A stretch of 62,386 nt of DNA from contig CAYTSO010000004.1 in assembly GCA_964440545.1 (NCBI GenBank), positions 1 through 62,386 of the forward strand. Direction: 5' to 3'. Below the pieces are notes generated by a model, which was not told the origin of the DNA, searched no databases, and saw only the letters and a list, made by a program, of their open reading frames with translations. The DNA is from an uncultured Candidatus Saccharibacteria bacterium (GTDB taxonomy: Bacteria > Patescibacteriota > Minisyncoccia > Phycocordibacterales > UBA9973). Below, in pieces: positions 1-50,709 of the stretch. Made by a program: the position numbers and the translations under genes. Position 1 is the first letter of the stretch, and each line of letters starts with the position of its first letter.

Positions 1-2173
1 AGGTACGTGCAGCAAAAAGTGTGCCGTGTTGATTAAAAGCAGCTGCGCCGAGGGAGGTGCCGTTTCCTCCAGGATTAACAAAAGTATGTTCTTCAATTAC
101 CGAACCATCGTCTGGGTCGATTTGCCAATAATATTCATCTCCGTAACCAAAGAAATATAAATTGTCCTCGGCGTCAAAAGCTAGACCGTTACCGTAAGGA
201 CTCCAACTAGACAGACCACTATCTCCTACTTCTTCAGCTAAACAGGTATTTCCATCACAAGAAGAAATATTTACGGTATACAAAACTCCGCTATTTCCAG
301 ACATTCCATAAAGTGTGCCGTCAGAACGAAAAGCGATGTCGCCTAGAACATGTTCGGTGGCTCCAGCATCGGTAATCACACCTAAATAGGTTCCTACACC
401 AGAGGTGGTATCAATAGTAAACAAACTTTTTGGATTGGTGGCGTTGCTGGCTGAACTACCATACAGAACACCTGTTTCTGGATGAAAAGCTAAACCGGTG
501 ATGTAGTCGCCAACAGAAGGAATATAAACACCACCCGTATCTCCGTTGGTTGGATTAATTGTGTAAAGATGGTCATCGAAACCTGTCGCACTAGGCATTC
601 CATAAAGAATTTGATCAGTTCCGCAAGTTGGAGTAGAAAAACTTTCGTCATCACCATAATCTGTTCCTTCACCGTTAACAGCATAGGCACGATAATGGTA
701 AGTAGTATCACAAGTTAAAGATGAAGCCACGACGCCAAAACCCTCTCGAACGAAATCTCCAGTGCTAGAGACGCTGCTTCCATAAGCGGTGGTTAAACCA
801 TATTCAAAACCTACTTCACTGGCTGATTCTCCGCCGGTGTCGGTGATGGTTCCAAGAAGAGCAGAAGCAGTAGAGTTGATCGCTAGAGTAGAACCGGTGA
901 CGACGGTTGGGCCAGAAACAGCACAGCCACCCAATTCAATGCCACCATTCACTATTCCTCCATCCGGGTCGGCGGTGACAGCGAAACAGGCACTACCAAA
1001 AACGGTTGAACCATTAAAGGTGGAGTCGTAGAAACTGGCGTTGCCACCAACTCTTCCCGGCGTACTACCTCTAGGAAAATTGGGACGGGCACTATTATGA
1101 CTTAAATCATTGAATGTTGCATTGCCGTCTATGCTACCGCCATAGTTGTAGCTAGAATTATAAAAAATTGCATTACCATAAACCGAGCCTTCGTTCCTAC
1201 TGGAATCATTGAATGTGGCGTTACTAGAAAGAAGTCCCTTATTGTAGCTTGAATTATTTAAGACGGCATTGCCACTAACGTTTCCAAGCTCACTATTATA
1301 ACTAGTATCATTGAAAGTTGCCGTGCCACTAATGTCATTTAAATTTAAGAAACATGCAAAAGGGGAATTTTTTAGGTTATGACTTGTGTCATTAAAGATT
1401 ACGTTGCCGTTAATATCACCAAAACAACTATTATAACTATCACCGTTAAAGATTACGTCACCAAAAATTGTATTATTGTTTATACTTGTTTCGTTAAACG
1501 TTGCTTCACCTGTAATTATATCAGCATTTCTTGCTGAATCATTAAAAGTCGCATTGCCAGTAATCGCTCCGTTGTTTTCGCTTGAGTCGTTAAAAATAAA
1601 TTCTGTAATTTCATTATTTTCCGAATCCATCGCCTTTCCTTCAACTGTTCCCCACTTCTGCGAATCATGGAGAACAATTGCTCCGTCTGACGCTGAGGTA
1701 AAAACTGCGTCTCCCTCAACAATGCCAGAATTGTAACTATCATCATTAAAAATTGCATTGCCAGAAATTGTTCCTTCCGACAGGTTAATTCCATTATAAC
1801 TATCGTCGTTAAAAATGACGTTACCTGTAATAGTAGCGCCTTTGTTGTAGCTTGAGAGTTCAAACGTCACATTATCAGCAACAATTACATTAATTGCCAA
1901 ATAGGCGAACCCATTATCAACTAATATTGAATTAACAGATACGTCTGAACCACTGTTTAAATCAACTGCGTTTGATATTACTACATCATCACTCGCGGTC
2001 GGCAACGCTGAAGCAGGAACAGTAAAAGCATCATCCTCCCACCAATTCCCCAACGTGTTCCAATCAGTATCTACGGCTGCATTGTAGTAAAGCGTAGCCG
2101 CTTGTGCTGAAGAAATATTTAAAAACAAAAAACCAAAAAATAATAAAAAGGAAACAAAAATAAATTTTTTCAT
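1..2173 (-). CDS. Secreted repeat-rich surface protein, truncated at its C-terminus by the window edge. It has a signal peptide, about 13 tandem ~20-aa GNAxFNDxSxN repeats, a YRAYA Fn3-like module and LYG/DG propeller-like repeats.
   Basis: My own minus-strand translation from ATG 2173 gives MKKFIFVSFLLFFGFLFLNISSAQAATLYYN. The frame stays open to position 1, so it is absent from the ORF track (no stop in window). A 60-nt DNA periodicity at ~1030-1860 encodes TGNVIFNDDSYN, SGNAIFNDDSYN, GNATFNDSARN and GEATFNETSIN. EVGFEYGLTTAYG...TYHYRAYA lies at ~680-830. Confidence 0.8.
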   Translation of the reverse strand, partial: MKKFIFVSFLLFFGFLFLNISSAQAATLYYNAAVDTDWNTLGNWWEDDAFTVPASALPTASDDVVISNAVDLNSGSDVSVNSILVDNGFAYLAINVIVADNVTFELSSYNKGATITGNVIFNDDSYNGINLSEGTISGNAIFNDDSYNSGIVEGDAVFTSASDGAIVLHDSQKWGTVEGKAMDSENNEITEFIFNDSSENNGAITGNATFNDSARNADIITGEATFNETSINNNTIFGDVIFNGDSYNSCFGDINGNVIFNDTSHNLKNSPFACFLNLNDISGTATFNDTSYNSELGNVSGNAVLNNSSYNKGLLSSNATFNDSSRNEGSVYGNAIFYNSSYNYGGSIDGNATFNDLSHNSARPNFPRGSTPGRVGGNASFYDSTFNGSTVFGSACFAVTADPDGGIVNGGIELGGCAVSGPTVVTGSTLAINSTASALLGTITDTGGESASEVGFEYGLTTAYGSSVSSTGDFVREGFGVVASSLTCDTTYHYRAYAVNGEGTDYGDDESFSTPTCGTDQILYGMPSATGFDDHLYTINPTNGDTGGVYIPSVGDYITGLAFHPETGVLYGSSASNATNPKSLFTIDTTSGVGTYLGVITDAGATEHVLGDIAFRSDGTLYGMSGNSGVLYTVNISSCDGNTCLAEEVGDSGLSSWSPYGNGLAFDAEDNLYFFGYGDEYYWQIDPDDGSVIEEHTFVNPGGNGTSLGAAAFNQHGTLFAART

Positions 2174-4082: not shown

Positions 4083-5078
4083 TTAGATACTGAAATTAGA
4101 AATATTATATAGCTCGGCATCATCTTGTTTTATTTCATCTTGAGTTCTGTCGTCGAGCGCTTCTTCTGAATTATCTATTTCAGTTTTTCCTTTATTTTCC
4201 TGAGAAATATGGTTTATATGATTCTCAAGCATTTCGATGGGTTTTTTTTCTATTTCAGATTTCTTGATTAAGTCTAAGATTGTACGCAAATCCTCTGTGG
4301 AAAAAAAATCAATTTTTATTTGCCCGCCGAGTTCCTTCCTGTCTATGTGGACACGAGTTCCCAATTTTTCCTGAAACTCTTCCTCTAATTCTGTGATTTC
4401 CGGGTCAGGCATAAATTCTTTCTTGCGTACACGGTCATAGGCAATTTTTCTAGCAAGTTTTTCTGCCTCCCGTACGGTAATCTTTTTGTATAAAATTTCC
4501 TTAAATAAAACTAGTTGCTCTTCTGGGTGGTCAATAAGCATTAAAATAGGGCGGGTATGTCCTTCGGTGATTTTTCCCTCAGACAGAGCATTTAAGATTT
4601 CCTCTGGCAAGCTCAAAATACGCAAGGAGTTGGAAACGTATACCCTGCTTTTGCCCATTTTTTTTGCTATCTCGTTATGGGTAAATTTGAACTCATTAAC
4701 TAACCTTAGGAATGCTCTAGCTCGATCAACCGCATTTAAGTCCTCCCGTTGGAGGTTTTCTATAATAGCAAGTTCAAGCTTCATAATTGCTGTATCGCCA
4801 GTGCGGATAATAACAGGAATTTGCGATACCATAGCAAGTTTGGCGGCACGTAATCGCCGTTCTCCGGCTATCAATTCATATTCTGTTACCAGGCCACCAC
4901 CCTCCTTTTCAACTTCAACTCGAGAAACAATAAGTGGCTGTAGAACCCCATATTGTTTTATTGAATCGGCTAAATCTTGCAACCGCGCCTCGTCAAAATC
5001 CCGTCTTGGCTGAAACGGATTTGGTTTAATTTTGTCGGTATTGATCCAAAAAATTGAATTAGAATATACGTTGGACAT
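4083..5078 (-). CDS. parB: Chromosome partitioning protein ParB/Spo0J
   Basis: KPNPFQPRRDFD, GVLQPLIV and GERRLRAAKLA motifs; 331 aa. Confidence 0.9.
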   Translation of the reverse strand: MSNVYSNSIFWINTDKIKPNPFQPRRDFDEARLQDLADSIKQYGVLQPLIVSRVEVEKEGGGLVTEYELIAGERRLRAAKLAMVSQIPVIIRTGDTAIMKLELAIIENLQREDLNAVDRARAFLRLVNEFKFTHNEIAKKMGKSRVYVSNSLRILSLPEEILNALSEGKITEGHTRPILMLIDHPEEQLVLFKEILYKKITVREAEKLARKIAYDRVRKKEFMPDPEITELEEEFQEKLGTRVHIDRKELGGQIKIDFFSTEDLRTILDLIKKSEIEKKPIEMLENHINHISQENKGKTEIDNSEEALDDRTQDEIKQDDAELYNISNFSI

Positions 5079-9025: not shown

Positions 9026-9649
9026 CTATTGAATTATGGAGAAAGTATCGTGGCTTTTTAGAAATGTTCCATTGGCTGAAACAGATATTCTGTAGCTTGA
9101 ACCCGGTTTTACACTTACTGTTCCTGGTCCAGCATCTCCAAATAGCGCCTTACTGGTATCCCATAAATAACTTCCAGTATTCTTTGTATTTTCAATTCCA
9201 AAAGAAGACCAGCAACCAATTTGCTTATGCGAACAATCAATTGAATCATCTTTTAAGTCCAGATTAACAGTATCAACATTCCCAAATAATTCTGGATCCC
9301 ATTTTATCTTATAAATGCTTCCGGCACTAATTTTTTCTCCACCATTAGGAGAAATAATTTTATTAATAGTTTTGAAATCTTGTTGAGGTGGAGGATAATT
9401 ATCCGCTACACACGAATATTTTTTGTTGCTTTCATCCTCTGAAATAAACGATAATTTGTAAGTATATCCCCTGGGGCAAGCACATGAGGGAACCGTAGTG
9501 TCGTACATATTGTTAACATTACAAGTTAAAACGCCATCAATGGGCTCAGAATAATTATTTTTTGCATAATATACAATGCCACCGACAACCAGGATAATAA
9601 TAACTGATACCGCAATGCCAACGCGAATAATACCTTTATTTGTTTTCAT
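9026..9649 (-). CDS. Hypothetical membrane-anchored extracytoplasmic Cys-containing protein
   Basis: 207-aa ORF with N-terminal TM helix GIAVSVIIILVVGGIVYY and a C-terminal Ig-like stretch ISPNGGEKISAGSIYKIKWDP. Confidence 0.5.
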   Translation of the reverse strand: MKTNKGIIRVGIAVSVIIILVVGGIVYYAKNNYSEPIDGVLTCNVNNMYDTTVPSCACPRGYTYKLSFISEDESNKKYSCVADNYPPPQQDFKTINKIISPNGGEKISAGSIYKIKWDPELFGNVDTVNLDLKDDSIDCSHKQIGCWSSFGIENTKNTGSYLWDTSKALFGDAGPGTVSVKPGSSYRISVSANGTFLKSHDTFSIIQ

Positions 9650-13999: not shown

Positions 14000-14551
14000 T
14001 TAACCCATTACTTCCTTTTCCTTCTTTTCAAAAATTTTTTCTAGGTTTGTGTTAGCCTCATTGGTAATTTTTTGTAACTCTTCCTTAGCTCGAAATCTTT
14101 CATCTTCGGTCATCTTTCCTTCTTTTTCCATTTTTTCTATATCCCCTTGGATTGTCTCTCTTTCTCTGCGCACAGCTATTCTTTGTTCCTCTAATTTTTC
14201 CTTTAAAACTTTTACTAAAGCTTGCCTTGTTTCTGTGGTTTGCTGAGGAAAAATAACCCTTATCCCCGTATCGTCAACCGCGACAGATAGGCCTAAATTC
14301 GAGGCAACTATCGCTTTTTCAATTCCTTTAATTTGAGTTTTATCCCAAGGTGCAATCCGTAAAGTCTTTGGATCCTCAATGGATACAGATGCCACATTTT
14401 TGATTGGCACACGCGAACCATATGATTCAACTAAAATACCATCTAAAACCATAGGCGAAGCACGCCCGATGTTAAGCTGACTATATTCCTTACCCAAAAA
14501 ATCCTCTATTTTTTTAAGTTCTGTTTTAAAGTTTGAAAAATTGTATTGCAT
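14000..14551 (-). CDS. frr: Ribosome recycling factor
   Basis: 183 aa with typical RRF sequence (GRASPMVLDGILVESYG). Confidence 0.95.
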   Translation of the reverse strand: MQYNFSNFKTELKKIEDFLGKEYSQLNIGRASPMVLDGILVESYGSRVPIKNVASVSIEDPKTLRIAPWDKTQIKGIEKAIVASNLGLSVAVDDTGIRVIFPQQTTETRQALVKVLKEKLEEQRIAVRRERETIQGDIEKMEKEGKMTEDERFRAKEELQKITNEANTNLEKIFEKKEKEVMG

Positions 14552-16350: not shown

Positions 16351-18291
16351 ATGAAAATAATATCGGTAATTCCGCTCCAAAAGGGTATTTTGAAGGGTGA
16401 TTTGACCTACTTTACCAATTTGAACGTATCTGTCGGCGATATTGTTGTTGTACCCTTAAGGAGTAAAAAAGTTCTAGCCCTGGCAACCTCCATAGAGGAA
16501 CTTAGGGAGGCAAAAAGCAATGTAAGAGGAATGAAATTTAACCTAAAAAAAATATTAGAAAACAAGGGAAAATCTGTTTTTTCAAGTGAATTTTTATACT
16601 CCATTTTTGATACCAGTAAATATTTTGCACAGAATATAAACAATACTTTGGTATCATTAATACCAAACACATTTTTAGAGGAGTACGAAAAAATAATAAA
16701 AATAAAGAACAAATCAGTCATAAAAAAAGGTAACATAGAAAATACAAAAAAAATAAAAGCAGAAAAATTATTATTCCAGTACAGAACCGAAGATCGTATT
16801 TCTGTCTACAGAACCCTGATTCGCGAATCTTTTGCCAGAAACAAATCAATCGTCATGGTTTTGCCAACCCAATTTGATATAGAAAAATTTGAGAAGCAAT
16901 TATCACGAGGCATCGAGCAATTTACTTTTGTTGTGCATAGCGGAAATACTGCAAAGAAAAACTTATTGACTTATGAAAAAATAATTAGTTCCGATCACCC
17001 GGTTTTTATCTTATGTACTCCGCCGTTTCTTGCAATCCCAAGAAAGGACATTAATACAATAATTTTGGAACGGGAAAACTCAAATGCGTATAGAACTATA
17101 TCCAGGCCACATCTTGATCTGAGAATTTTTGTGGAAATTTATGCTTCAAGAATAAACGCTCGACTTATTATTGCTGATGATATTCTTCGCTACGAAACAA
17201 TTGAACGGAAAAATACAGACGATCTGGCCCCCTTACACCCCTTATCTTTTAGGACTGATTTTACAGGCGAAATTGAGGTATTCGGAAGACAAAAAAGAAA
17301 TGACAAAAAATTCAGTATTTTTAGCAACGAAAGTATAAAGGAAATTAAATTTGCCCTAGAAAACAAGAGGAATGTTTTTATTTTTTCACTAAGAAAAGGA
17401 CTTGCGACCATGACCGTATGCAAAGACTGTCACGAAACAGTAAATTGTGAAGCGTGCGGAGCACCACTGGTTTTATATTTATCTCATAAGGGTAAAAAGA
17501 GAATGTTTGTCTGCAATAGGTGTGAGAAGGAAATTGGCGGTGATATCGCTTGTGCTTCTTGTGGGAGCTGGAATTTAATACCGCTTGGAATTGGTACTGA
17601 TAGTGTGCAAGAAGAGATAAAAAAGCTCTTTCCAAAAAATAATATTTTTAAGTTAGATAAAGAGTCTGCCAAATCAACCTCTGGAGCAAAAAAAATAATA
17701 AGTGAATTTGAGAAGGCGAAGGGAGCAATCCTTGTTGGTACTGAAATGACTTTCTTTTATCTCAAAGAAAAAGTTTCACTTTCAGTCATTGCCTCCTTTG
17801 ATTCGCTCTGGAGCATTCCAAATTTTAAGATGGGAGAAAAAATTGTAAGAATTTTGTTTTCAGTGATCGAAAACACCAAGGAGAAAATTATTATCCAGAC
17901 GAAAAACAAAGAAGATTCAGCTATTCTCGCAATTAAATCCGGCAATTTACTTTCCTTTGTGCGAGAAGAATTAGACAATAGGCGTGAATTAAATTACCCT
18001 CCCTTTAGACGTTTTATAAAAATAACTCACCTGGGAACGAAAGATCAAACCATTAAAGCAAGAGAAGAGTTAAAAGAAATTTTTCAAGAATATTCTCCAG
18101 AAATATATAGCGGTTTTATAACTAAATTAAAAAATAAATATGTCACAAACGCTTTAATAAAAATTGATACGCGTAAGTGGTCCTTGCCGGAGCTTAAGGA
18201 AGACGCTTCAATCGATGAAAATTTGCTCAAAAAATTAACCGCCCTCCCAACGTCTTTTGATGTTTTGATAGATCCAGAAGATTTGTTGTAA
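16351..18291 (+). CDS. priA: Primosomal protein N' (PriA) homolog with degenerate ATPase/helicase motifs
   Basis: Four CxxC pairs are retained (CKDCHETVNCEACG...CNRCEKE...CASCGS), as is the NYPPF tail. LLFQYRTEDRIS replaces Walker A, and IILERENS replaces DEEH. Confidence 0.8.
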   Translation: MKIISVIPLQKGILKGDLTYFTNLNVSVGDIVVVPLRSKKVLALATSIEELREAKSNVRGMKFNLKKILENKGKSVFSSEFLYSIFDTSKYFAQNINNTLVSLIPNTFLEEYEKIIKIKNKSVIKKGNIENTKKIKAEKLLFQYRTEDRISVYRTLIRESFARNKSIVMVLPTQFDIEKFEKQLSRGIEQFTFVVHSGNTAKKNLLTYEKIISSDHPVFILCTPPFLAIPRKDINTIILERENSNAYRTISRPHLDLRIFVEIYASRINARLIIADDILRYETIERKNTDDLAPLHPLSFRTDFTGEIEVFGRQKRNDKKFSIFSNESIKEIKFALENKRNVFIFSLRKGLATMTVCKDCHETVNCEACGAPLVLYLSHKGKKRMFVCNRCEKEIGGDIACASCGSWNLIPLGIGTDSVQEEIKKLFPKNNIFKLDKESAKSTSGAKKIISEFEKAKGAILVGTEMTFFYLKEKVSLSVIASFDSLWSIPNFKMGEKIVRILFSVIENTKEKIIIQTKNKEDSAILAIKSGNLLSFVREELDNRRELNYPPFRRFIKITHLGTKDQTIKAREELKEIFQEYSPEIYSGFITKLKNKYVTNALIKIDTRKWSLPELKEDASIDENLLKKLTALPTSFDVLIDPEDLL

Positions 18292-18974: not shown

Positions 18975-19418
18975 TTATTTTCTTTGATATTTTCCCATTA
19001 ATTCTGCTTCTGCTAAAATATGTCCCTGCATAGCGTTGACCAATTCCGCAGAGCCTGATGAGGTGGGAAGGTCGAACATTGTGTCTAGGGCATATAGTTT
19101 TAAAAAATATCGATGCGAATTTTGGGGCGGGCACGGTCCGTCATATTCATTCTTGGGCCAGCTGTTTTGCCCTTGCACTGCACCAGAGGGAACACTATTT
19201 TCTGCAATGTTGGTGGTATTTGGAGAAATGTTCCACATAACCCAGTGATCCCAGGTAACCCCGCGAGTGGCATCTGGATCATCCATAATAAGTGCTAAGC
19301 TTTTGGCGTCCCCTGGAACATTAGTAATAAGAAATGGCGGATTAATATTTTCTCCATCACAAGTATATTTGCTCGGAATTAAACCGCCATTTTCAAATGC
19401 ACCACTTATTATATTCAT
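18975..19418 (-). CDS. YbhB/YbcL family Raf-kinase-inhibitor-like (PEBP) protein
   Basis: 147 aa; YTCDGENINPPF and a PPQNSHRY-type PEBP motif. Confidence 0.8.
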   Translation of the reverse strand: MNIISGAFENGGLIPSKYTCDGENINPPFLITNVPGDAKSLALIMDDPDATRGVTWDHWVMWNISPNTTNIAENSVPSGAVQGQNSWPKNEYDGPCPPQNSHRYFLKLYALDTMFDLPTSSGSAELVNAMQGHILAEAELMGKYQRK

Positions 19419-19440
19419 ACTAATATATTAACACAAATAA

Positions 19441-19476
19441 AAAAGACCCCGAGCGGTGTAAACACGTCTCGGGGTC
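19441..19476 (-). terminator. Intrinsic terminator
   Basis: On the minus strand, GACCCCGAG(ACGTGTTTACACCG)CTCGGGGTC is followed by TTTT. It lies 23 nt upstream of the PEBP ATG. Confidence 0.7.
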
Positions 19477-19477
19477 A

Positions 19478-19510
19478 CTATTTGGGACTAGCCCTGGCCA
19501 TATTGGCCAT
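19478..19510 (-). CDS. Candidate 10-codon leader micro-ORF (MANMARASPK)
   Basis: AGGAGG (19517-19522), 6-nt spacer, ATG 19510. The TAG stop ends 1 nt before the terminator stem. Confidence 0.2.
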   Translation of the reverse strand: MANMARASPK

Positions 19511-19610
19511 AACTCACCTCCTTGCCCGCCTGGGCGGTTTGATTGGGTGATGGCGTGTCCTCTGTTGGCCGTCGGGACCGCCGTTTTTGGGGCTAAGAAC
19601 GACTAGGAGG

Positions 19611-19639
19611 AGTATAGCATACTCTATAATTCTTGTCAA
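19611..19639 (-). promoter_or_regulatory. Near-consensus sigma70 promoter with an extended -10
   Basis: On the minus strand: TTGACA (19639-19634), 17-nt spacer ending in TGc, TATACT (19616-19611). It starts 4 nt after the atpC stop codon. Confidence 0.6.
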
Positions 19640-19642
19640 GTG

Positions 19643-20092
19643 CTATTTCCTGTATTTACGGTTGCGCCACTTATCGGCGATTTTAACACGATTGAGCGAA
19701 CGCTCAAGTTCTGCTTCAAAATGTTCAAAGTCAACGTGTTCTTTGTTCTCCATCAACTTCTTCAGCTCTTCTGCTCGCGCTTTCGCTTGCTCGATCTTCT
19801 CGTCGTGGAGCTCTGACACGTACTCTGCAAAATCAGCCAGTACCGCAACTTCGGTCTCTCCTTTTTCATTTTTTTTGACTTCAACAAAACCGCCCACCAC
19901 CGCCATGGGCACCTGCTCCCCTTTTGCAAGAGCGACTACGTCTCCTGACGTTAACCCAGCCACTAATGGGATGTGATTCGGAAGAATAGTAATTTCGCCC
20001 AAAGTCGTGGGTAAACTTACTTGATCAACCATTTCCTCTAAAACCAGTCTTTCGGGTGTTACTATTTTTAATTTTAATTGCTTGGTGCTCAT
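19643..20092 (-). CDS. atpC: F1 ATP synthase epsilon subunit
   Basis: Last gene of the atp operon; 149 aa with typical N-terminal beta-sandwich sequence. Confidence 0.9.
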   Translation of the reverse strand: MSTKQLKLKIVTPERLVLEEMVDQVSLPTTLGEITILPNHIPLVAGLTSGDVVALAKGEQVPMAVVGGFVEVKKNEKGETEVAVLADFAEYVSELHDEKIEQAKARAEELKKLMENKEHVDFEHFEAELERSLNRVKIADKWRNRKYRK

Positions 20093-36831: not shown

Positions 36832-37842
36832 TTAATCTTTCTTTAGAATTTTTGCTAATCCATCGCTAAATTCCTTTATCATTTTATCATCAAATAGTGA
36901 AATGGTAAAAACATTTTTATTGATTTTTTCGAATTCTTTTATTTTTTTTGTAATAATTTTAGGATCTTCTATCAGGTCGCTCTTGGTTAAAATTATTATT
37001 TCTTTTTTGGAACAAAGATCTCCTTCTCCAAATTTTAAATTTTTGTCGTATTTTTCTAATTCTTTGCGAATTTCTTTATAGGCTTTCATCATTCCCGCTG
37101 AACCCTTGGACAGGTTTTCAAATGAAATTAGATGAGCAAGCATTTTTGTACGCTTAATATGACGTAAAAATTTAACACCTAATCCTTTTCCCCCTGACGC
37201 TCCTTCAATAAGTCCAGGAATATCTGCCAAAATATATCCGTAAAAATTTCCCAGATTGGGATCCAAGGTGGTAAATGGATAATCTCCCACTTTTGCTTCT
37301 GCGTTAGTTAAAGCATTCAGTAACGAAGTTTTTCCTGCGTTAGGCAGACCAATCAAGCCAACATCAGCAAAAAGCTCTAATTCAATTTTGAAGCTTCCTT
37401 TTTCGCCCTCTTGTCCCTCACGTGATTCTTTTGGTGTTGTGTTGACGGAGCTTTTGAAGTGTTCATTGCCAAAGCCACCATATCCACCCTTTAAGATCAT
37501 AATTTTTTGCCCCTCCTCGATTAGTTGCCAAGTTTCATCTGTTTCAAGATTCGTAACGACGGAACCAACTGGCAACTCTAAAATAAAATCTTCGCCGTTT
37601 TTTCCATGCAAACTTTTCTTACCTCCATCCTCGCCACGACCAGCTGAAAAATTCTTTTTTGTTTTGTACTTAGAAAGGACGTGAATATCACGTACGGCCA
37701 AAATATAAAAATCACCACCGCGCCCTCCGTCCCCCCCAGCGGGTCCGCCTTTTGGTATAAATTTTTCCTGGCGCCAACGCACGACACCGTTTCCTCCGCG
37801 TCCAGCCTCAGCGGATATTGTCATTTCATCAATAAATGCCAT
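36832..37842 (-). CDS. obg: GTPase Obg/CgtA
   Basis: Gly-rich Obg fold (GGRGGD) and G-domain GLPNAGKTS. Confidence 0.95.
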   Translation of the reverse strand: MAFIDEMTISAEAGRGGNGVVRWRQEKFIPKGGPAGGDGGRGGDFYILAVRDIHVLSKYKTKKNFSAGRGEDGGKKSLHGKNGEDFILELPVGSVVTNLETDETWQLIEEGQKIMILKGGYGGFGNEHFKSSVNTTPKESREGQEGEKGSFKIELELFADVGLIGLPNAGKTSLLNALTNAEAKVGDYPFTTLDPNLGNFYGYILADIPGLIEGASGGKGLGVKFLRHIKRTKMLAHLISFENLSKGSAGMMKAYKEIRKELEKYDKNLKFGEGDLCSKKEIIILTKSDLIEDPKIITKKIKEFEKINKNVFTISLFDDKMIKEFSDGLAKILKKD

Positions 37843-39232: not shown

Positions 39233-39949
39233 ATGAACAAGTTGATATTCTTTGATACCGAGACGACTGGCAACACGGAAAAAGATTTTTTGGTTCAAAT
39301 TGCCTACAAACACGGCGACGAGAGTTTTGTCGGTCTTTACCGCCCGCCAATTAAAATTCCACCCGAGGCCTCGGCCATACACCACATTACCAATAAAATG
39401 GTTGAGGATAAACCAATTTTTAAAGAAGGTACTGACTTGCCGATTATTAAAATACTTTTCGAAGATAAAGACTCTGTTGTGGTTGCCCACAACGCACCCT
39501 TTGATCTTTTGATGATAGAAAAGGAAGGGATCAAGCCGAATAAATTTATTTGTACACTCCGGGTTGCCAGAGAATTGGACAAAGAGGGAAAAATAGAAAG
39601 ATACAATTTGCAATATTTGCGGTACTTGTTGGATTTAAATGTAGAAGCAGTAGCTCACGATGCCATGGGTGACGTATTGGTCATGGAAAAATTATTTGAA
39701 AGATTGAAAAATAAAATAATGAAGGAGGAAAAGCTAAACGAGGAAAAAGCAATAGAAAAAATGATTGCGATATCTTCACATCCCACCCTTATGAAAACCT
39801 TTAGTTTTGGTAAGCACAATGGTAAAAAATTGGAAGAAGTATTAGCAATCGATCGAGGTTATTTAGAATGGTTGTTAGAGCAGAAATTAGAAAGCGATCA
39901 AATAGACGAGGATTGGATTTATACTCTAAAACATCATTTAAAAAAATAG
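39233..39949 (+). CDS. DEDDh 3'-5' exonuclease (DnaQ/ExoX-like) with a small C-terminal helical domain
   Basis: Exo motifs FFDTETTG, VAHNAPFD and HDAMGD. Confidence 0.8.
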   Translation: MNKLIFFDTETTGNTEKDFLVQIAYKHGDESFVGLYRPPIKIPPEASAIHHITNKMVEDKPIFKEGTDLPIIKILFEDKDSVVVAHNAPFDLLMIEKEGIKPNKFICTLRVARELDKEGKIERYNLQYLRYLLDLNVEAVAHDAMGDVLVMEKLFERLKNKIMKEEKLNEEKAIEKMIAISSHPTLMKTFSFGKHNGKKLEEVLAIDRGYLEWLLEQKLESDQIDEDWIYTLKHHLKK

Positions 39950-41814: not shown

Positions 41815-41842
41815 TTGACAAATCATTTTTTAAATGTATAAT
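41815..41842 (+). promoter_or_regulatory. Consensus sigma70 promoter of cassette 2
   Basis: TTGACA (41815-41820), 16-nt spacer, TATAAT (41837-41842). Confidence 0.6.
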
Positions 41843-41893
41843 TAACACGTAAGCTTATCAACTCGTTTTGTACTTTGTTAAAAGGAGGATCGC

Positions 41894-42058
41894 GTGAATA
41901 AATATGACGAACAGATTCTTGTGCTCAATAAACTTAAGGAAAGGGTCAAGAAGCAACTTTATTCTTGCCCCAGCGAAAAAGAGTTCGTTTTGCTTCTCTC
42001 TCTTTTCAGAGAGCACCTCAAAGAGCACGATGATCAGTCCGTAGAAAGGAGGTCATAA
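41894..42058 (+). CDS. Orphan small protein (54 aa, predicted helical hairpin), GC-rich cassette
   Basis: AAAGGAGG (41881-41888), 5 nt, GTG 41894. My own translation gives MNKYDEQILVLNKLKERVKKQLYSCPSEKEFVLLLSLFREHLKEHDDQSVERRS. Its stop overlaps the next start (TAATG). Confidence 0.45.
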   Translation: MNKYDEQILVLNKLKERVKKQLYSCPSEKEFVLLLSLFREHLKEHDDQSVERRS

Positions 42059-42237
42059 TGGCGACCATAATGAGCCAGGTAAAAATATTTAGGGAGCCCA
42101 CCCTTCTCGAAATGCAAGTGGCAATAAACAGATGGCTCCAGGAAGCCGAGGCAATCGGCGTCAAGATCATCTGCACCGACCTTTGTTTCTCAGAGAACCA
42201 ACCCATCATCGCTGTTTTCTACAGCCGGGATGAGTAA
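42058..42237 (+). CDS. Orphan small protein (59 aa), GC-rich cassette
   Basis: AGGAGG 6 nt upstream. MATIMSQVKIFREPTLLEMQVAINRWLQEAEAIGVKIICTDLCFSENQPIIAVFYSRDE. I counted 88/180 G+C. Confidence 0.55.
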   Translation: MATIMSQVKIFREPTLLEMQVAINRWLQEAEAIGVKIICTDLCFSENQPIIAVFYSRDE

Positions 42238-42247
42238 TAAATCTACA

Positions 42248-42272
42248 AGAGCCCCACCAGGGGCTCTTTTTT
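42248..42272 (+). terminator. Intrinsic terminator of cassette 2
   Basis: AGAGCCCC-ACCA-GGGGCTCT followed by TTTTTT. Confidence 0.75.
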
Positions 42273-42302
42273 GTTTATTTTCAACAAATTAATTACAGCA
42301 GA

Positions 42303-42923
42303 TTATCTCACCAAATAAATCTTCAGCCAAATCATAAAAAGAAGAATTAAAAACACAACCAGAATAGCCAAAATCTTCTGTTTTGAATTAGATATATTTG
42401 CCCTTGGTCTCATTTGACTGTCGAACATTTTAATACCTCGAGCTGTCATTTTTTCTTTCATGATTTTGCTAATTTTATGATCTATATGTCCCGCTTTCAG
42501 CATTTCAATGAAAATGGGATACCGTGTAATATAGTTATGGGGATTTCTTAAATAATCCATGGCCGTTCTTGCTACTATTTCTGTATTGGTGTATTCATCA
42601 ACCAAATAATCAACTGCTCCTAGTTTTATGCCCATCTCGATGTCCTCGATCTTACTTTTTCTGTTTTCAAAAATAATTGGGATATTTTTTGTTCGAACGT
42701 CGGCCTTTAACAAACCTAGGGCCATAAAACCATCCCTCCCCGGTAAAACAATGTAAAGATAAATTAAATCTGGCATAATTTTTACCACTTTTCCAACAAA
42801 ATCATCATTGGCATCCTCTAGGGAAAAGACGTCAAAATTTTCCTGTCTCAATCGAAGCGCATAGCTTTCTAGTGAAAAACTATAGCTGCAGATAAAAAGA
42901 ATCTTTTTCTTTTTTCTTCTCAT
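42303..42923 (-). CDS. Pseudo-receiver (CheY-like) domain protein with a C-terminal TM anchor
   Basis: The receiver fold is recognisable (PDLIYLYIVLPGRDG, GAVDYLV). The acidic pocket, phospho-Asp, Thr and Lys positions are all substituted. The C-terminus has the TM helix ILAILVVFLILLFMIWLKIYL. Confidence 0.7.
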   Translation of the reverse strand: MRRKKKKILFICSYSFSLESYALRLRQENFDVFSLEDANDDFVGKVVKIMPDLIYLYIVLPGRDGFMALGLLKADVRTKNIPIIFENRKSKIEDIEMGIKLGAVDYLVDEYTNTEIVARTAMDYLRNPHNYITRYPIFIEMLKAGHIDHKISKIMKEKMTARGIKMFDSQMRPRANISNSKQKILAILVVFLILLFMIWLKIYLVR

Positions 42924-42979: not shown

Positions 42980-43192
42980 TTATTTATCACGTCTTCCCAG
43001 AGGAGGTTTATCTTTTCCTTCTCTATCAGAGCTCTCTTCTCTTTTCTCAATTTTTTTTCCTGCTTCCTCGCAGTCGGAACAAAAAGCAGGATATTTCCCA
43101 ACAAGCTCTTTAAAACGCCTGTTGCACCCGTAACAAAACCCTCTCTGGTTGCTCATTTTCAAGTTCCTCCTTATGAAATAGTAAGCGTCCAT
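42980..43192 (-). CDS. Orphan small zinc-ribbon protein (70 aa, or 58 aa from ATG 43156), GC-rich cassette
   Basis: CYGC...CSDC motifs. Both candidate starts have SD sites: AAGGAG plus 7 nt for 43192, and AGGAGG plus 9 nt for 43156. Confidence 0.5.
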   Translation of the reverse strand: MDAYYFIRRNLKMSNQRGFCYGCNRRFKELVGKYPAFCSDCEEAGKKIEKREESSDREGKDKPPLGRRDK

Positions 43193-43728: not shown

Positions 43729-43757
43729 TTGACAGGCATATCTATATATGATATAAT
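43729..43757 (+). promoter_or_regulatory. Perfect consensus sigma70 promoter with an extended -10 (cassette 4)
   Basis: TTGACA (43729-43734), 17-nt spacer ending in TGa, TATAAT (43752-43757). It begins 8 nt after the mscL stop. Confidence 0.7.
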
Positions 43758-43783
43758 ACCAAAATACAGAAAAGGAGGAAGAA

Positions 43784-43951
43784 ATGGACTGGCGTGAAAG
43801 AAACCTGTTCCGTGAGCTCTTGAGGGAAAACCTCGAGATGCTCGAGATCCTAAGGTCCGGAATTCCGGACAAGAAAAAGATCGAAAAAATCTCGGAGATC
43901 CTCGAGGCCTTAACCAAGGGTGTAGAGATCACCGAGGTCGACGAGGGGTAG
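43784..43951 (+). CDS. Orphan small protein (55 aa, predicted helical hairpin), GC-rich cassette
   Basis: AGGAGG (43773-43778), 5 nt, ATG. MDWRERNLFRELLRENLEMLEILRSGIPDKKKIEKISEILEALTKGVEITEVDEG. I counted 86/168 G+C. Confidence 0.55.
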   Translation: MDWRERNLFRELLRENLEMLEILRSGIPDKKKIEKISEILEALTKGVEITEVDEG

Positions 43952-43980
43952 AACCCCCCACATCATCATCAAAATATTGA

Positions 43981-44010
43981 AACCCGCTTCGGCGGGTTTT
44001 ATTTTTTATT
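43981..44010 (+). terminator. Intrinsic terminator of cassette 4
   Basis: AACCCGC-TTCG-GCGGGTT followed by a T-run. Confidence 0.75.
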
Positions 44011-44019
44011 TTATTTTGT

Positions 44020-44055
44020 AAAAAAAATCCCCCGCTTCATGATTATGAAGCGGGG
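44020..44055 (-). terminator. Intrinsic terminator of cassette 5 (the hairpin loop contains the stop codon)
   Basis: CCCCGCTTCAT/ATGAAGCGGGG 11-bp stem (44030-44055) followed by a T-run on the minus strand. Confidence 0.65.
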
Positions 44056-44456
44056 TACATATTGATAAGGTTCTCACGTTTTTCGCGAACCTCTTCTTCT
44101 CTTTTTTTCTCCTCGAACTCAATGGCTCGAGGATCCGGCCCATTCGGCCAAATGACGAGTGTCACGTTGCTCTTTCTAACAACGTAATAATCGCATTTGC
44201 CGACTCCGGGAGCTGGCCCCTGGCACTTGAACTCATCCAGGGCAATGAATTCCATGCTGGAGCCTGGAATCGTACGAGACGACTGGGAAATCTCGCGTAG
44301 GGGCGCCTTGTCTTTGTTGAAGATCATCGTAATCCTCAACCGACCATTACTGGCCTCAGAGAATGTCGCCTCTACCTCATCGGCGCATCCATATCTGATT
44401 ATCCGAACACGAGCCCCGTGCTCAAGAAGCAGTGGCTTCATTTCAAGTGGCAACAT
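44043..44456 (-). CDS. Orphan protein (137 aa), GC-rich cassette
   Basis: AGGAGG (44464-44469), 7 nt, ATG 44456. Own promoter and terminator. I recognised no motif. Confidence 0.6.
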   Translation of the reverse strand: MLPLEMKPLLLEHGARVRIIRYGCADEVEATFSEASNGRLRITMIFNKDKAPLREISQSSRTIPGSSMEFIALDEFKCQGPAPGVGKCDYYVVRKSNVTLVIWPNGPDPRAIEFEEKKREEEVREKRENLINMYPAS

Positions 44457-44521
44457 GGTTTGTCCTCCTTTCCCAATATGGGAGATTTTATATTTAAAAA
44501 GCCAAGGTACGACTTATTTCG

Positions 44522-44549
44522 ATTATAACAATTTTAATGCTTTTGTCAA
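44522..44549 (-). promoter_or_regulatory. Consensus sigma70 promoter with an extended -10 (cassette 5)
   Basis: On the minus strand: TTGACA (44549-44544), 16-nt spacer ending in TGt, TATAAT (44527-44522). Confidence 0.65.
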
Positions 44550-44878: not shown

Positions 44879-44929
44879 TATTATGGGTGCCAGGTTTTGT
44901 ACCTTGGAAAAATAGAAAGGAGGTGGCGC

Positions 44930-45112
44930 ATGTCACCAGACTTTGAATTTCAGAAAGAGCAGCAAGAAGCAAAGAAAGTACTGGTAAGGCTGGTCGAACT
45001 TTTTTCGAGCATGCGTCCCCCAAACAACAGAAGGACCCTCGTAGAGATTCTACAAGAGCAGGCTCAGATGGTCGAGAAAGAAATGGGGGCCAAAAAAGAT
45101 GATAGTGAGTAA
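44930..45112 (+). CDS. Orphan small protein (60 aa, predicted helical hairpin), GC-rich cassette
   Basis: AGGAGG (44918-44923), 6 nt, ATG 44930. MSPDFEFQKEQQEAKKVLVRLVELFSSMRPPNNRRTLVEILQEQAQMVEKEMGAKKDDSE. Confidence 0.5.
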   Translation: MSPDFEFQKEQQEAKKVLVRLVELFSSMRPPNNRRTLVEILQEQAQMVEKEMGAKKDDSE

Positions 45113-49975: not shown

Positions 49976-50113
49976 ATGTTTATGTTCGTTGTAACTATGG
50001 GTGTGTTCTTTTTGGCAACCAAGGCCTTGACGACCTTTGTGATTTTTGCCGGAGTAATCGTGTGGAAAATTGGTTTTGATATCCTTGGGGTTGACCACGA
50101 TTCCCCTATCTAA
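49976..50113 (+). CDS. Orphan 45-aa hydrophobic (two-TM-like) micro-protein
   Basis: AAAGGAG, then 7 nt, then ATG 49976. MFMFVVTMGVFFLATKALTTFVIFAGVIVWKIGFDILGVDHDSPI. Confidence 0.45.
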   Translation: MFMFVVTMGVFFLATKALTTFVIFAGVIVWKIGFDILGVDHDSPI

Positions 50114-50125
50114 GGAGGTAATGTG

Positions 50126-50317
50126 ATGGTACTAGAGATAATTTGGCCCACGAAGAGGTTCTTTAATTCAGCGCAGGTTGCGAAGCTTCTCGGAAAACCA
50201 GTAAACCCAGAGAACGCTTTCCGACCCGAGATTCTTCAGATTCGGGGAGGAAACGACGAGGACATCAAAATTTTAACAGACCCCGAAAACGGGTTCAGGG
50301 TGAAAAAAGTCACCTAG
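50126..50317 (+). CDS. Orphan 63-aa protein (possible small HTH: FFNSAQVAKLLGKP)
   Basis: AGGAGG (50113-50118) overlaps the upstream stop, then 7 nt, then ATG 50126. The track start is GTG 50123. Confidence 0.5.
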   Translation: MVLEIIWPTKRFFNSAQVAKLLGKPVNPENAFRPEILQIRGGNDEDIKILTDPENGFRVKKVT

Positions 50318-50329
50318 AAAGGGGGCAGA

Positions 50330-50449
50330 ATGGTATGGTTTCTACTTGGCGTGCTAGTTGTTTTCATTCTAGCCGCCATCGCAGAAAAGCAAGGCAAAGC
50401 AACAGAAACGGGGGCGTACGATACCCCCCTGATTGACTTCGAAAAGTAA
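50330..50449 (+). CDS. Orphan 39-aa single-TM micro-protein
   Basis: AAAGGGGG, then 4 nt, then ATG 50330. MVWFLLGVLVVFILAAIAEKQGKATETGAYDTPLIDFEK. Confidence 0.4.
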   Translation: MVWFLLGVLVVFILAAIAEKQGKATETGAYDTPLIDFEK

Positions 50450-50461
50450 ATATTGTAAATT
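50433..50461 (+). promoter_or_regulatory. Candidate internal sigma70 promoter placing a TSS at the first base of hairpin 1
   Basis: TTGACT (50433-50438), 17-nt spacer, TAAATT (50456-50461). Position +7 is 50468. Confidence 0.4.
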
Positions 50462-50467
50462 CTTTCT

Positions 50468-50539
50468 GTGGGGAATCCCGCACCAAGATGGGGCGAGTAC
50501 GGACAGCGTCCGTGACGATTCTATCGCGGGATTCCCCAC
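50468..50539 (+). repeat. Inverted repeat / hairpin 1
   Basis: GTGGGGAATCCCGC (50468-50481) and GCGGGATTCCCCAC (50526-50539) are perfect reverse complements. An inner hairpin ACGGAC-AGC-GTCCGT is present. Confidence 0.9.
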
Positions 50540-50559
50540 GCCAATGTTCCTTCCCTTGT

Positions 50560-50627
50560 GCGGGGAATCCTGGAATCATACGGGCCTTGTTCCCCCCAAG
50601 GTCCCCCCGGGTTCTGGGATTCCCCGC
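50560..50627 (+). repeat. Inverted repeat / hairpin 2
   Basis: GCGGGGAATCC (50560-50570) and GGATTCCCCGC (50617-50627) are perfect reverse complements. An inner helix GGGCCTTG/CAAGG(T)CCC is present. Confidence 0.9.
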
Positions 50628-50665
50628 TCCAACGCTCTTATTCAGAGCTAAATCTAAAAATAAAC

Positions 50666-50690: not shown

Positions 50691-50709
50691 ATTTATATAT
50701 CACATAAAA

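What the first reader, a model, noticed from the sequence alone, without database searches (positions are those of the whole stretch)
19441..19639. Stand-alone GC-rich structured transcription unit between atpC and the PEBP gene
I counted 57% G+C (102/180) in this intergenic block, in a 28-38% GC genome. It has its own TTGACA-N17(TGc)-TATACT promoter starting 4 nt after the atpC stop, and a strong terminator (19445-19476 plus a U-run). The predicted transcript is about 160 nt.

It contains several mutually exclusive helices. GGCGG at the 5' side or GGCGGG further 3' can pair with the central CCGCC. CCAUCACC can pair with GGUG..AUGG, which would sequester an AGGAGG SD and an AUG. 5' CCUCCU can also pair with that SD.

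The SD and AUG open a 10-codon ORF (MANMARASPK, 19510-19478) whose stop lies 1 nt before the terminator stem. A terminating ribosome would therefore melt the terminator. That layout fits either a novel sRNA or a riboswitch/leader-peptide attenuator controlling the downstream PEBP-rsmI unit. I could not match it to SRP, RNase P, tmRNA, 6S or any riboswitch consensus I know.
Basis: partly seen in the sequence, partly recalled or inferred. Interest (0 to 1): 0.7.

Follow-up and report, generated by a model that had tools for sequence, protein, structure and literature searches.

The report
Orphan small-RNA cassette after atpC
A roughly 210-base, GC-rich insertion between atpC and a PEBP gene in an uncultured Patescibacteria genome looks like a self-contained small-RNA gene, but it has no relatives anywhere we could search, so it is a real but unverifiable orphan rather than a riboswitch.

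Summary
The sequence features are real. There is an 11/12 sigma-70 promoter with an extended -10. The predicted transcript is about 165 nt and 58-61% GC, against 37% for the window. It ends in a -21.7 kcal/mol intrinsic terminator, and a 10-codon ORF with a Shine-Dalgarno (SD) site abuts that terminator. No Rfam family matches.

The RNA folds into one well-populated four-way junction, and only on the minus strand (z -2.8, against -1.0 for plus).

The element is a lineage-specific insertion. Syntenic relatives have 12 nt between atpC and PEBP. The atpC-rsmI interval varies from 1 nt to 2.1 kb and holds unrelated promoter/SD/terminator mini-cassettes in other relatives. I found no homologue in 99 loci, phages, plasmids, IMG/VR or JGI metagenomes, so covariation cannot be tested.

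PEBP carries this genome's native leaderless promoter signature (TGnTAnnnT-N6-ATG). That signature is kept in relatives that lack the element. No antiterminator exists. The riboswitch/attenuator reading is therefore disfavoured.

Best reading: an acquired, autonomous small-RNA or micro-ORF cassette of unknown function, which also terminates the atp operon. Rivals are a decayed protein cassette, a translation-coupled attenuator and a type I toxin-antitoxin-like module.

The parts
19434..19642 (-). Extent of the lineage-specific insertion, from the atpC stop codon to the PEBP -10 box
   Evidence: Relatives L083, L084 and L085 have atpC stop + 12 nt + PEBP ATG (TAG-TATAAT-N6-ATG). The window has 224 nt here.
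19611..19639 (-). Sigma-70-type promoter TTGACA-17-TATACT with extended -10 (TGc)
   Evidence: Scores 11/12 with TG. A local alignment to the promoter of the L097 unit (GCACTTGACAA...TATGCTAT.CT) scores 31, against a shuffle maximum of 28. L092 has the same TTGACAAGA at the same site.
19440..19604 (-). Predicted transcript of about 165 nt. The start site (A at 19604, 7 nt after the -10) is inferred, not measured.
   Evidence: MFE -66.6 kcal/mol. For 19440-19610, z = -3.8 against dinucleotide shuffles.
19488..19596 (-). Four-way junction. P1 19596-19590/19494-19488. P2 19582-19574/19562-19552. P3 19550-19546/19518-19514 with an inner hairpin 19537-19534/19529-19526. P4 19509-19504/19500-19495.
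   Evidence: The centroid equals the MFE. Minus strand z = -2.83 (1 of 200 shuffles as stable); plus strand z = -1.02. Helix probabilities are 0.55-0.99.
19514..19523 (-). AAGGAGGUGA, a 10-nt Shine-Dalgarno sequence. AAGGA is unpaired and GGUGA is paired in P3.
   Evidence: Unpaired probabilities are 0.98, 0.97, 0.85, 0.38, 0.81, 0, 0, 0, 0, 0.13. Only 4 of 56 native genes have an SD, whereas the mini-cassettes in this window all carry AAGGAGG.
19478..19510 (-). 10-codon micro-ORF MANMARASPK. The AUG is partly paired in P4, and codons 6-8 form the 3' strand of P1.
   Evidence: L097 has an SD-led micro-ORF MIRASP whose R-A-S-P codons all differ synonymously from these.
19439..19476 (-). Intrinsic terminator: a 9-bp G+C stem with an inner 3-bp stem, then U6
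   Evidence: -21.7 kcal/mol, base-pair probability 0.99. This is the only part that attracts weak Rfam hits, all to terminator-shaped models.
19416..19433 (-). PEBP's own leaderless promoter TGtTAATAT-N6-ATG. This is context and marks the right boundary of the element.
   Evidence: Position-specific enrichment of TGnTAnnnT at -12. The same geometry is present in L081, L083 and L085 and, with N7, in L092.
19482..19550 (+). Antisense 22-codon hydrophobic ORF MGLALAILAITHLLARLGGLIG (TTG start). Relevant only to the type I toxin-antitoxin rival.
   Evidence: Mean Kyte-Doolittle hydropathy is 1.78. None of 5000 local shuffles reaches it, but 8 of 622 small ORFs in the window do. No convincing plus-strand promoter or SD is present.

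Best explanation
The element is a lineage-specific mini-cassette inserted into the hypervariable atpC-rsmI interval of a Paceibacteria/Nomurabacteria-type (Patescibacteria) genome. It works as an autonomous transcription unit.

A near-consensus sigma-70 promoter directly after the atpC stop codon drives a minus-strand RNA of about 165 nt. This RNA folds into a stable four-way junction, which half-buries its own 10-nt SD and its AUG. It ends at a strong intrinsic terminator. That terminator also ends atp-operon transcription, which in relatives runs straight into PEBP.

PEBP-rsmI is then transcribed separately from its own leaderless promoter, which sits immediately downstream of the U-tract.

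The product is most likely a stand-alone structured small RNA, possibly also expressing a 10-residue peptide. It is not a cis-acting leader of PEBP.

Shown here: the sequence signals, the strand-specific fold stability, the insertion status and the independent PEBP promoter signature. Inferred: that the unit is transcribed, the start site, and any function of the RNA.
For: - Promoter scores 11/12 with an extended -10. Terminator is -21.7 kcal/mol.
- G+C of 58-61% equals that of the window's tRNAs (47-61%) and exceeds that of the protein-coding mini-cassettes (43-49%).
- Fold stability is significant only on the promoter and terminator strand: z = -2.83 against -1.02. The ensemble is well defined.
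- The sequence is identical in two independent assemblies.
- It is an insertion. L083, L084 and L085 have a 12-nt atpC-PEBP spacer. The atpC-rsmI interval varies from 1 to 2094 nt across 18 non-self relative loci.
- Comparable cassettes with their own promoter, SD and terminator occupy the same interval in L092 (whose -35 begins with the same TTGACAAGA at the same site), L005 and L097.
- L097 shows that a cassette of this style can lack any long ORF.
- PEBP has its own leaderless promoter.
- No antiterminator is seen.
Against: - No homologue exists in anything searchable, so there is no conservation or covariation evidence that the RNA is under selection.
- The nearest relatives in a database of 5.8 billion proteins are only 87-90% (AtpC) and 76% (PEBP) identical, so there is no population-level variation to read.
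- A perfect SD plus AUG is unexpected in a pure non-coding RNA (p about 0.001-0.01). It is the hallmark of the protein-coding cassettes in this genome.
- The z-score of -2.8 is moderate for a GC-rich sequence.
- There are no expression data.
Confidence: 0.45

Rival explanations
1. Vestigial cassette. The element is the decayed remnant of an acquired small protein-coding cassette (promoter, leader, SD, start codon, then terminator) whose ORF was truncated to 10 codons. It has no function of its own beyond incidental termination of the atp operon.
For: - It has the same style as the protein cassettes in this window and in relatives: a TTGACA..TGnTAnnnT promoter, a 7-10 nt AAGGAGG SD, an ATG and an intrinsic terminator.
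- L092 carries an 88-aa ORF cassette at exactly this site, starting with the same TTGACAAGA.
- The element is an orphan and a recent insertion in a hot spot.
- Leaders of 45-75 nt occur in other cassettes.
Against: - G+C (58-61%) is well above that of the coding cassettes (43-49%) and at tRNA level.
- Strand-specific fold stability interlocks the leader with codons 6-8 of the micro-ORF.
- There is no protein-level similarity in any frame to the cassette proteins of the window, L092 or L005.
- The promoter, SD and terminator are all intact, which is not expected of a decaying locus.
Confidence: 0.2
2. Translation-coupled attenuator. When the junction unfolds and the micro-ORF is translated, the terminating or stalled ribosome covers the 5' arm of the terminator. 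Transcription from the strong promoter, and from the atp operon, then reads into PEBP-rsmI. When the SD and AUG are sequestered, the terminator forms.
For: - The stop codon lies 1 nt before the terminator stem.
- The SD is half-buried and the AUG is partly paired.
- SD plus AUG is unlikely by chance.
- Internal genes in this genome are translated without an SD, so read-through mRNA could still express PEBP.
- L097 has an SD-led micro-ORF MIRASP in a non-coding unit directly upstream of rsmI. Its R, A, S and P codons all differ synonymously from those of the window's MARASPK. RAGP and RAPP are known ribosome-arrest cores (PMC12992588).
Against: - PEBP has its own conserved leaderless promoter downstream of the terminator.
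- No antiterminator or second populated conformation exists.
- The ORF has no run of regulatory codons.
- Relatives express PEBP-rsmI without any such element.
- The window and L097 RNAs are not otherwise alignable by sequence or by covariance model.
- In L097 the UCUCCUU of the Ser-Pro codons pairs with the SD, which gives an RNA-level reason for those codons.
- RASP does not occur in the text of the RAPP-motif paper I consulted, and the paper reports that arrest depends on an N-terminal adjacent region as well as the C-terminal core; whether 6-10 residues could supply that is my inference.
Confidence: 0.15
3. Type I toxin-antitoxin-like module of the Ibs/Sib layout. The strongly expressed minus-strand RNA is an antisense antitoxin that fully overlaps a 22-codon hydrophobic toxin ORF on the plus strand (19482-19550).
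For: - MGLALAILAITHLLARLGGLIG has mean hydropathy 1.78, which none of 5000 dinucleotide shuffles of the element reaches.
- The ORF lies entirely inside the region covered by the minus-strand RNA.
- On the plus strand, a hairpin followed by GUUUUUG lies after the ORF (the complement of P2).
- Orphan status and insertion into an intergenic hot spot are typical of such loci (my own knowledge of Ibs/Sib).
Against: - There is no convincing plus-strand promoter or SD, and the start codon is TTG.
- 8 of 622 small ORFs in the window are equally hydrophobic.
- Half of the peptide (LALAILAI) is the reverse complement of the palindromic P4/P1 stems with 9-nt spacing, so its codons are not independent and the shuffle p-value is inflated.
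- Plus-strand fold z is only -1.0.
- There are no paralogues or homologues.
Confidence: 0.08
4. A small protein gene: the 41-codon minus-strand ORF (19639-19514, TTG start, MTRIIEYAILLLVVLSPKNGG...), translated from atp read-through transcripts.
For: The ORF exists. AGGA lies 8 nt upstream of the TTG. The N-terminus is hydrophobic.
Against: - Its start codon is the first three bases of the -35 hexamer.
- The C-terminal half is rich in G/C-ending and AGG/CGG codons, unlike native genes (GC3 about 0.3).
- No gene was called here in three assemblies.
- It is absent from all relatives.
Confidence: 0.02
5. A highly diverged member of a known RNA family (SRP, 6S, a tRNA-like RNA or a known riboswitch) that Rfam models fail to recognise in Patescibacteria.
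For: The RNA has a four-way junction with a 7-bp closing stem and junction lengths of 7/1/4/0 nt, which is loosely tRNA-like. Patescibacterial RNAs are often divergent (my own knowledge).
Against: - No hit at E<=10 with permissive filters on a 401-nt query.
- ARAGORN finds the 7 tRNAs of the window but nothing here.
- A housekeeping RNA would not be absent from this locus in all relatives while also undetectable elsewhere in their fetched loci.
Confidence: 0.05

Closest known systems
Stand-alone bacterial small-RNA genes with their own sigma-70 promoter and Rho-independent terminator, as found by GC-rich-intergenic-region screens in AT-rich genomes (PMC8632094, PMC11109978, listed)
   Same: A discrete unit bounded by a promoter and a terminator. 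It sits in an unusually GC-rich intergenic region of an AT-rich genome, its fold is stable on one strand only, and it is about 165 nt long.
   Different: Those candidates are accepted on conservation and covariation across species. This one has no detectable homologue and is a recent insertion. It also carries a perfect SD plus a micro-ORF.
Leader-peptide transcription attenuators (pyrBI/trp type; my own knowledge)
   Same: A short SD-led ORF whose end abuts an intrinsic terminator, so that a ribosome at the end of the ORF would prevent hairpin formation.
   Different: There is no antiterminator or alternative fold, no regulatory codon run and no conservation. The downstream gene has its own promoter between the terminator and its start codon.
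Ibs/Sib type I toxin-antitoxin loci of E. coli (my own knowledge)
   Same: A structured RNA with a strong promoter, broadly comparable in size to Sib, fully overlaps a roughly 20-codon, very hydrophobic ORF on the opposite strand. The locus is an orphan in an intergenic region.
   Different: No promoter or SD for the putative toxin, a TTG start, no repeated copies and no sequence similarity.
RAPP/RAGP-type ribosome arrest peptides (SecM, ApdA, ApdP, ApcA; PMC12992588, PMC10951233)
   Same: The micro-ORF ends in R-A-S-P-(K)-stop, which is one residue away from SecM's RAGP. L097 has a second SD-led micro-ORF, MIRASP-stop.
   Different: RASP does not occur in the paper I consulted. By that paper, arrest in ApcA, ApdA and ApdP requires an N-terminal adjacent region as well as the C-terminal core, and these arrest peptides were found upstream of protein-localization genes. 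Here the peptides are 6-10 residues and sit upstream of PEBP and rsmI.
Promoter/SD/terminator mini-cassettes in the same clade (window 41815-42290, 43729-44010, 44043-44549, 56880-57287; L092 1040-1400 and 1893-2170; L005 1770-2440; L097 3019-3570)
   Same: A near-consensus TTGACA-N16/17-TAnnnT promoter placed a few bases after the preceding stop codon, usually with TGn (absent at 41815). A 7-10 nt AAGGAGG-type SD, an intrinsic terminator and G+C above the genome average. They insert into intergenic hot spots, and all products are orphans (no Pfam).
   Different: All except L097 encode ORFs of 49-156 aa. The window element has only 10 codons, a leader of about 90 nt, and a much higher G+C.

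Membership tests
Any Rfam 15 family | Covariance-model score at or above the family's gathering threshold | tested here: not met
   No hit at gathering threshold in the window other than 7 tRNAs. At E<=10 on 19350-19750 the only hits are 10-17 bit matches, below the gathering thresholds of 34-70 bits; the four that overlap the element lie on the terminator or the P4 hairpin.
Transcription-terminating riboswitch | Aptamer conserved across species, with covariation | tested here: not met
   No homologue in 99 loci (blastn, nhmmer, covariance model R1), phages, plasmids, IMG/VR or JGI metagenomes.
Transcription-terminating riboswitch | Mutually exclusive terminator and antiterminator folds | tested here: not met
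   Folds truncated before the 3' arm leave the 5' arm essentially unpaired. No competing long-range helix has a probability above 0.1.
Transcription-terminating riboswitch | Lies in the 5' UTR of the gene it controls | tested here: not met
   The TGtTAATAT-N6-ATG leaderless promoter of PEBP lies between the terminator and the ATG. The signature is position-specific across the window and is kept in relatives without the element.
Leader-peptide attenuator | Short SD-led ORF that overlaps or abuts the terminator region | tested here: met
   AAGGAGGUGA-N5-AUG, 10 codons, stop codon 1 nt before the stem.
Leader-peptide attenuator | Regulatory codons, or a documented arrest motif, in the leader peptide | tested here: not met
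   MANMARASPK has no codon run. RASP resembles RAGP but does not occur in PMC12992588.
Type I toxin-antitoxin (Ibs/Sib layout) | Very small hydrophobic ORF fully overlapped by an antisense RNA that has its own promoter | tested here: met
   The 22-aa ORF at 19482-19550(+) has hydropathy 1.78. The minus-strand unit spans 19604-19440. The promoter is predicted only.
Type I toxin-antitoxin (Ibs/Sib layout) | Toxin mRNA with its own promoter and ribosome-binding site | tested here: not met
   No plus-strand promoter scoring >=9/12 lies near the ORF; the nearest candidate, at 19342-19369, is weak. There is no SD and the start codon is TTG.
Trans-acting small RNA gene | Independent promoter and Rho-independent terminator bounding a non-coding transcript | tested here: met
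   This rests on sequence prediction only.
Trans-acting small RNA gene | Detected transcript and identified target | not testable with these tools
   No transcriptome data are available. blastn of the element against the window gives only chance matches of 14 nt or less outside itself.
tRNA / tmRNA | Recognised by ARAGORN or by the tRNA covariance model | tested here: not met

The most novel reading that the evidence does not exclude
The micro-ORF is a ribosome-sensing leader. Translation of MANMARASPK right up to the terminator stem, possibly with pausing at the SecM-like R-A-S-P, decides whether the strong promoter and the atp operon read through into PEBP-rsmI. rsmI encodes the 16S rRNA C1402 2'-O-methyltransferase of the ribosomal P site. 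This would be a feedback loop in which ribosome state controls a ribosome-modifying enzyme.

A related SD-led MIRASP micro-ORF sits in a non-coding unit directly upstream of rsmI in relative L097. That would make this a small, clade-specific family of peptide-based attenuators in an otherwise SD-less, leaderless-mRNA organism.
Probability: 0.06. Interest if true: 0.7.

Novelty: new member of a known kind. Interest (0 to 1): 0.33.

Why it matters
To my knowledge, almost nothing is known about regulatory RNAs in Patescibacteria (CPR). If this unit is expressed, it would be one of the first candidate small RNAs in that group. It would also be an example of a non-coding cargo in a set of mobile-looking mini-cassettes with their own promoter, SD and terminator. 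These cassettes contrast sharply with the host's native gene style, which is leaderless and lacks an SD.

The context found here may be of more general interest than the element itself. It includes a hypervariable atpC-rsmI interval, native TGnTAnnnT-N6-ATG promoters, and SD-led orphan cassettes.

As it stands, the element is a single-genome orphan with no comparative support, so its value is as a lead for transcriptomics rather than as a finding.

Tried and rejected
- **Rfam.** Gathering and permissive E-value searches found nothing.
- **Element against 80 atpD-anchored loci from GTDB species representatives.** blastn and nhmmer found nothing. The same was true after adding 19 more loci.
- **Phage and plasmid collections.** blastn 'distant' found no match.
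- **IMG/VR.** Three exact 21-23-mers gave 0 hits. Six degenerate 24-nt patterns gave 0 confirmed hits.
- **JGI metagenomes.** I translated the stop-free frame of the RNA into a pseudo-protein so that one scan tested six wobble-tolerant 24-nt patterns. The only result was a chance hit inside a coding ORF (L089).
- **Single-sequence covariance model of the four-way junction (R1).** Searched against 46 CPR (Patescibacteria) loci plus L089 and the window, partly with filters off. Only the element itself was found.
- **Closer relatives through PEBP and AtpC protein searches.** The nearest are 76% and 87-90% identical, and none carries the element.
- **Homology of the window element to the L097 non-coding unit.** Only the promoter aligns above shuffles. 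The transcribed part does not: score 26 against a shuffle mean of 29.7.
- **Remnant of a known cassette protein.** tblastn of the window, L092 and L005 cassette proteins against the element gave nothing.
- **Retron, MITE, tRNA-like and tmRNA readings.** There is no reverse transcriptase nearby, no terminal inverted repeat and no ARAGORN hit.
- **Literature on leaderless translation in Patescibacteria.** No paper held all three search terms.
Full report
**What is there**

On the minus strand, the atpC ORF (19643-20092; PF02823) ends in TAG. Three bases later a near-consensus promoter begins: TTGACA (19639-19634), a 17-nt spacer ending in TGc, then TATACT (19616-19611). It scores 11/12. Only six sites in the 62-kb window score that high, against about three in shuffles, and the three perfect ones sit in front of small SD-led genes. 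This promoter type therefore appears to be in use in this organism.

From the inferred start at A19604, the sequence runs 165 nt to a strong intrinsic terminator. The terminator stem is GACCCCGAG/CUCGGGGUC (19476-19445), followed by U6. Its energy is -21.7 kcal/mol and its pair probability is 0.99.

G+C is 57.6% for the transcript and 60.7% for its folded core. The window is 37.4%. That equals the window's tRNAs (47-61%) and exceeds the local protein-coding mini-cassettes (43-49%).

The same sequence occurs base for base in two independent assemblies of sibling samples.

**Structure**

Whatever 5' end is assumed, the RNA folds into one four-way junction. P1 is UUAGCCC/GGGCUAG. P2 is an 8-9 bp hairpin. 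P3 is UCACC/GGUGA with an inner CCGC/GCGG tetraloop hairpin. P4 is UGGCCA/UGGCCA.

The centroid equals the MFE. The core has z = -2.83 (1 of 200 shuffles as stable) on the minus strand but only -1.02 on the plus strand. Helix probabilities are 0.55-0.99. The only alternative pairs above 0.1 are local register shifts and one pair extending P1, and none forms a competing long-range helix. The 'mutually exclusive helices' therefore exist on paper only. Folds truncated before the terminator's 3' arm reveal no antiterminator.

The 10-nt SD, AAGGAGGUGA, has its AAGGA exposed and its GGUGA paired. The AUG is partly inside P4. Codons 6-8 of the micro-ORF MANMARASPK (19510-19478) form the 3' strand of P1. 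The stop codon lies 1 nt before the terminator stem.

**Known families**

Rfam 15 gives nothing at gathering threshold. At E<=10 it gives only noise, mostly on the terminator hairpin. ARAGORN finds nothing here.

**Organism and relatives**

AtpD is 88-90% identical to that of MAGs labelled Minisyncoccia or Nomurabacteria. None of the 80 atpD-anchored loci contains the element.

Syntenic relatives with atpC-PEBP-rsmI-priA-mreB (L083, L084, L085) have exactly 12 nt between the atpC stop and the PEBP ATG, reading TAG-TATAAT-N6-ATG. The element is therefore an insertion of about 210 nt.

Across 18 non-self relative loci, the atpC-to-rsmI interval ranges from 1 nt to 2094 nt. Its contents vary:

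- Nothing (L002, L091, L093).
- PEBP alone.
- Unrelated small genes (L001, L081, L098).
- A 65-70% GC cassette with its own promoter, a 156-aa ORF and a terminator (L005).
- In L092 (AtpC 88% identical), a cassette at the very same site. Its -35 begins with the same TTGACAAGA. It is followed by AGGAGGTGGAATATG, an 88-aa ORF and a terminator. A second cassette lies between PEBP and rsmI.
- In L097, a 550-nt unit of 49% GC in front of rsmI. Its promoter aligns with the window's above shuffle level. It contains no called gene, only three SD-led micro-ORFs (MVYTTGFV, MSGFT, MIRASP). It has no Rfam or tmRNA hit.

**Search for homologues**

All of the following were negative:

- Phage and plasmid blastn.
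- Three k-mers and six degenerate patterns against IMG/VR.
- Six degenerate 24-nt patterns against JGI metagenomes, which gave one chance hit.
- A covariance model of the junction against 46 CPR loci plus L089 and the window.

Protein searches show that the nearest organisms in the database are only 76% (PEBP) and 87-90% (AtpC) identical. Covariation therefore cannot be assessed.

**Why it is probably not a PEBP leader**

Only 4 of 56 genes in the window have an SD. TAnnnT peaks sharply at -12 relative to the ATG: 10 genes, 7 of them preceded by TGn. Away from -13/-12, other offsets have about 2 genes each and almost no TGn, one each at -21 and -6. This is the signature of leaderless mRNAs.

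PEBP has exactly this signature, TGtTAATAT-N6-ATG at 19433-19416, placed between the element's U-tract and its own ATG. L081, L083 and L085, which lack the element, have TATAAT-N6-ATG. PEBP therefore has its own promoter, and the element lies upstream of it.

**What the element resembles**

The window contains a distinct class of units with a near-consensus promoter, a 7-10 nt AAGGAGG SD, a small ORF, an intrinsic terminator and raised G+C. Their ORFs are 54-137 aa, and none of the ten I scanned (eight from the window, plus L092 and L005) has a Pfam match. They lie at 41.8-42.3, 42.98-43.17, 43.7-44.0, 44.04-44.55, 44.9-45.1, 50.1-50.45 and 56.9-57.3 kb.

The element has all the expression signals of this class. 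It differs in having only a 10-codon ORF, a structured leader of about 90 nt, and tRNA-level G+C. Together with the strand-specific fold stability, this makes me favour an RNA (or RNA plus micro-peptide) cargo over a decayed protein gene. The decayed-cassette reading cannot be excluded.

**Rival signals**

(a) The antisense 22-codon ORF MGLALAILAITHLLARLGGLIG is more hydrophobic than any ORF in 5000 shuffles of the element. However, 8 of 622 small ORFs in the window match it. Half of it derives from palindromic stems. It also lacks a promoter and an SD. The type I toxin-antitoxin reading is therefore weak.

(b) The window's MARASPK and L097's MIRASP share R-A-S-P, with synonymous differences in all four codons. 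The motif is one residue away from SecM's RAGP arrest core (PMC12992588). Against this, the RNAs are otherwise not alignable. In L097 the Ser-Pro codons pair with the SD. RASP does not occur in the arrest-motif paper I consulted. I record this as an unexplained lead.

**Verdict**

The element is an orphan, lineage-specific, self-contained transcription unit. It is most probably a small structured RNA cassette that also insulates the atp operon from PEBP-rsmI. It is not a member of any known RNA family, and it is unlikely to be a riboswitch or attenuator for PEBP. Without homologues or expression data its function stays open, and interest is moderate to low.

Noticed in passing
window 50434-50695 (+): A second, more striking GC-rich non-coding unit. 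It has a TTGACT-17-TAAATT promoter-like site, then two tandem copies about 90 nt apart of a long hairpin built on GTGGGGAATCCCGC/GCGGGATTCCCCAC, then a clean terminator. MFE is -112.6 kcal/mol with z = -7.6. No Rfam hit reaches the gathering threshold.
   Followed up: partly
window, whole (e.g. 4083-5078, 9026-9649, 14000-14551, 16351-18291, 36832-37842, 39233-39949, 42303-42923, 57317-58243): Native genes almost never have a Shine-Dalgarno sequence (4 of 56). First genes of operons carry TGnTAnnnT exactly 6 nt before the ATG, which suggests that leaderless mRNAs are the norm in this organism.
   Followed up: partly
window 41815-42290, 42980-43172(-), 43729-44010, 44043-44549(-), 44917-45112, 50112-50451, 56880-57287(-): A class of mini-cassettes with a near-consensus sigma-70 promoter (seen for four of them), an AAGGAGG SD, ORFs of 54-137 aa, G+C of 43-49% and, in the four I read through, an intrinsic terminator. 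None of the eight window cassette proteins I scanned has a Pfam match. Their expression signals differ from those of the native genes, which suggests horizontal acquisition.
   Followed up: partly
L097 3019-3570 (+): A unit of about 550 nt and 49% GC, bounded by a promoter and a terminator, directly upstream of rsmI in a relative. It has no called gene but holds three SD-led micro-ORFs (MVYTTGFV, MSGFT, MIRASP). Its promoter is similar to the window element's. There is no Rfam or tmRNA hit, and the 3' half folds with z = -2.8.
   Followed up: partly
L001-L007, L083-L099: interval between atpC and rsmI: The interval is hypervariable among close relatives (1 nt to 2.1 kb). It holds PEBP, unrelated small orphan genes or GC-rich cassettes, for example a 742-nt insert in L005 (58% GC overall, with 100-nt windows up to 71%) that carries a 156-aa orphan ORF. 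It looks like an insertion hot spot.
   Followed up: partly
window 50332-50451 (+): A 39-codon ORF, MVWFLLGVLVVFILAAIAEKQGKATETGAYDTPLIDFEK, with a hydrophobic helix and a charged tail, lies just upstream of the double-hairpin RNA. It could be a small membrane protein or a toxin-like peptide.
   Followed up: no
L008 6189-6286 (+): A SAM-I riboswitch (RF00162, 49 bits) lies downstream of the atp operon in a relative. This shows that Rfam models do detect riboswitches in this group.
   Followed up: no
window 1-1500: The raised G+C (about 54-56% at 811-1060) lies in a stretch with no listed ORF of 100 aa or more. I judged it from the sequence alone to be a repeat-rich ORF that runs off the window end. 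I did not test this.
   Followed up: no
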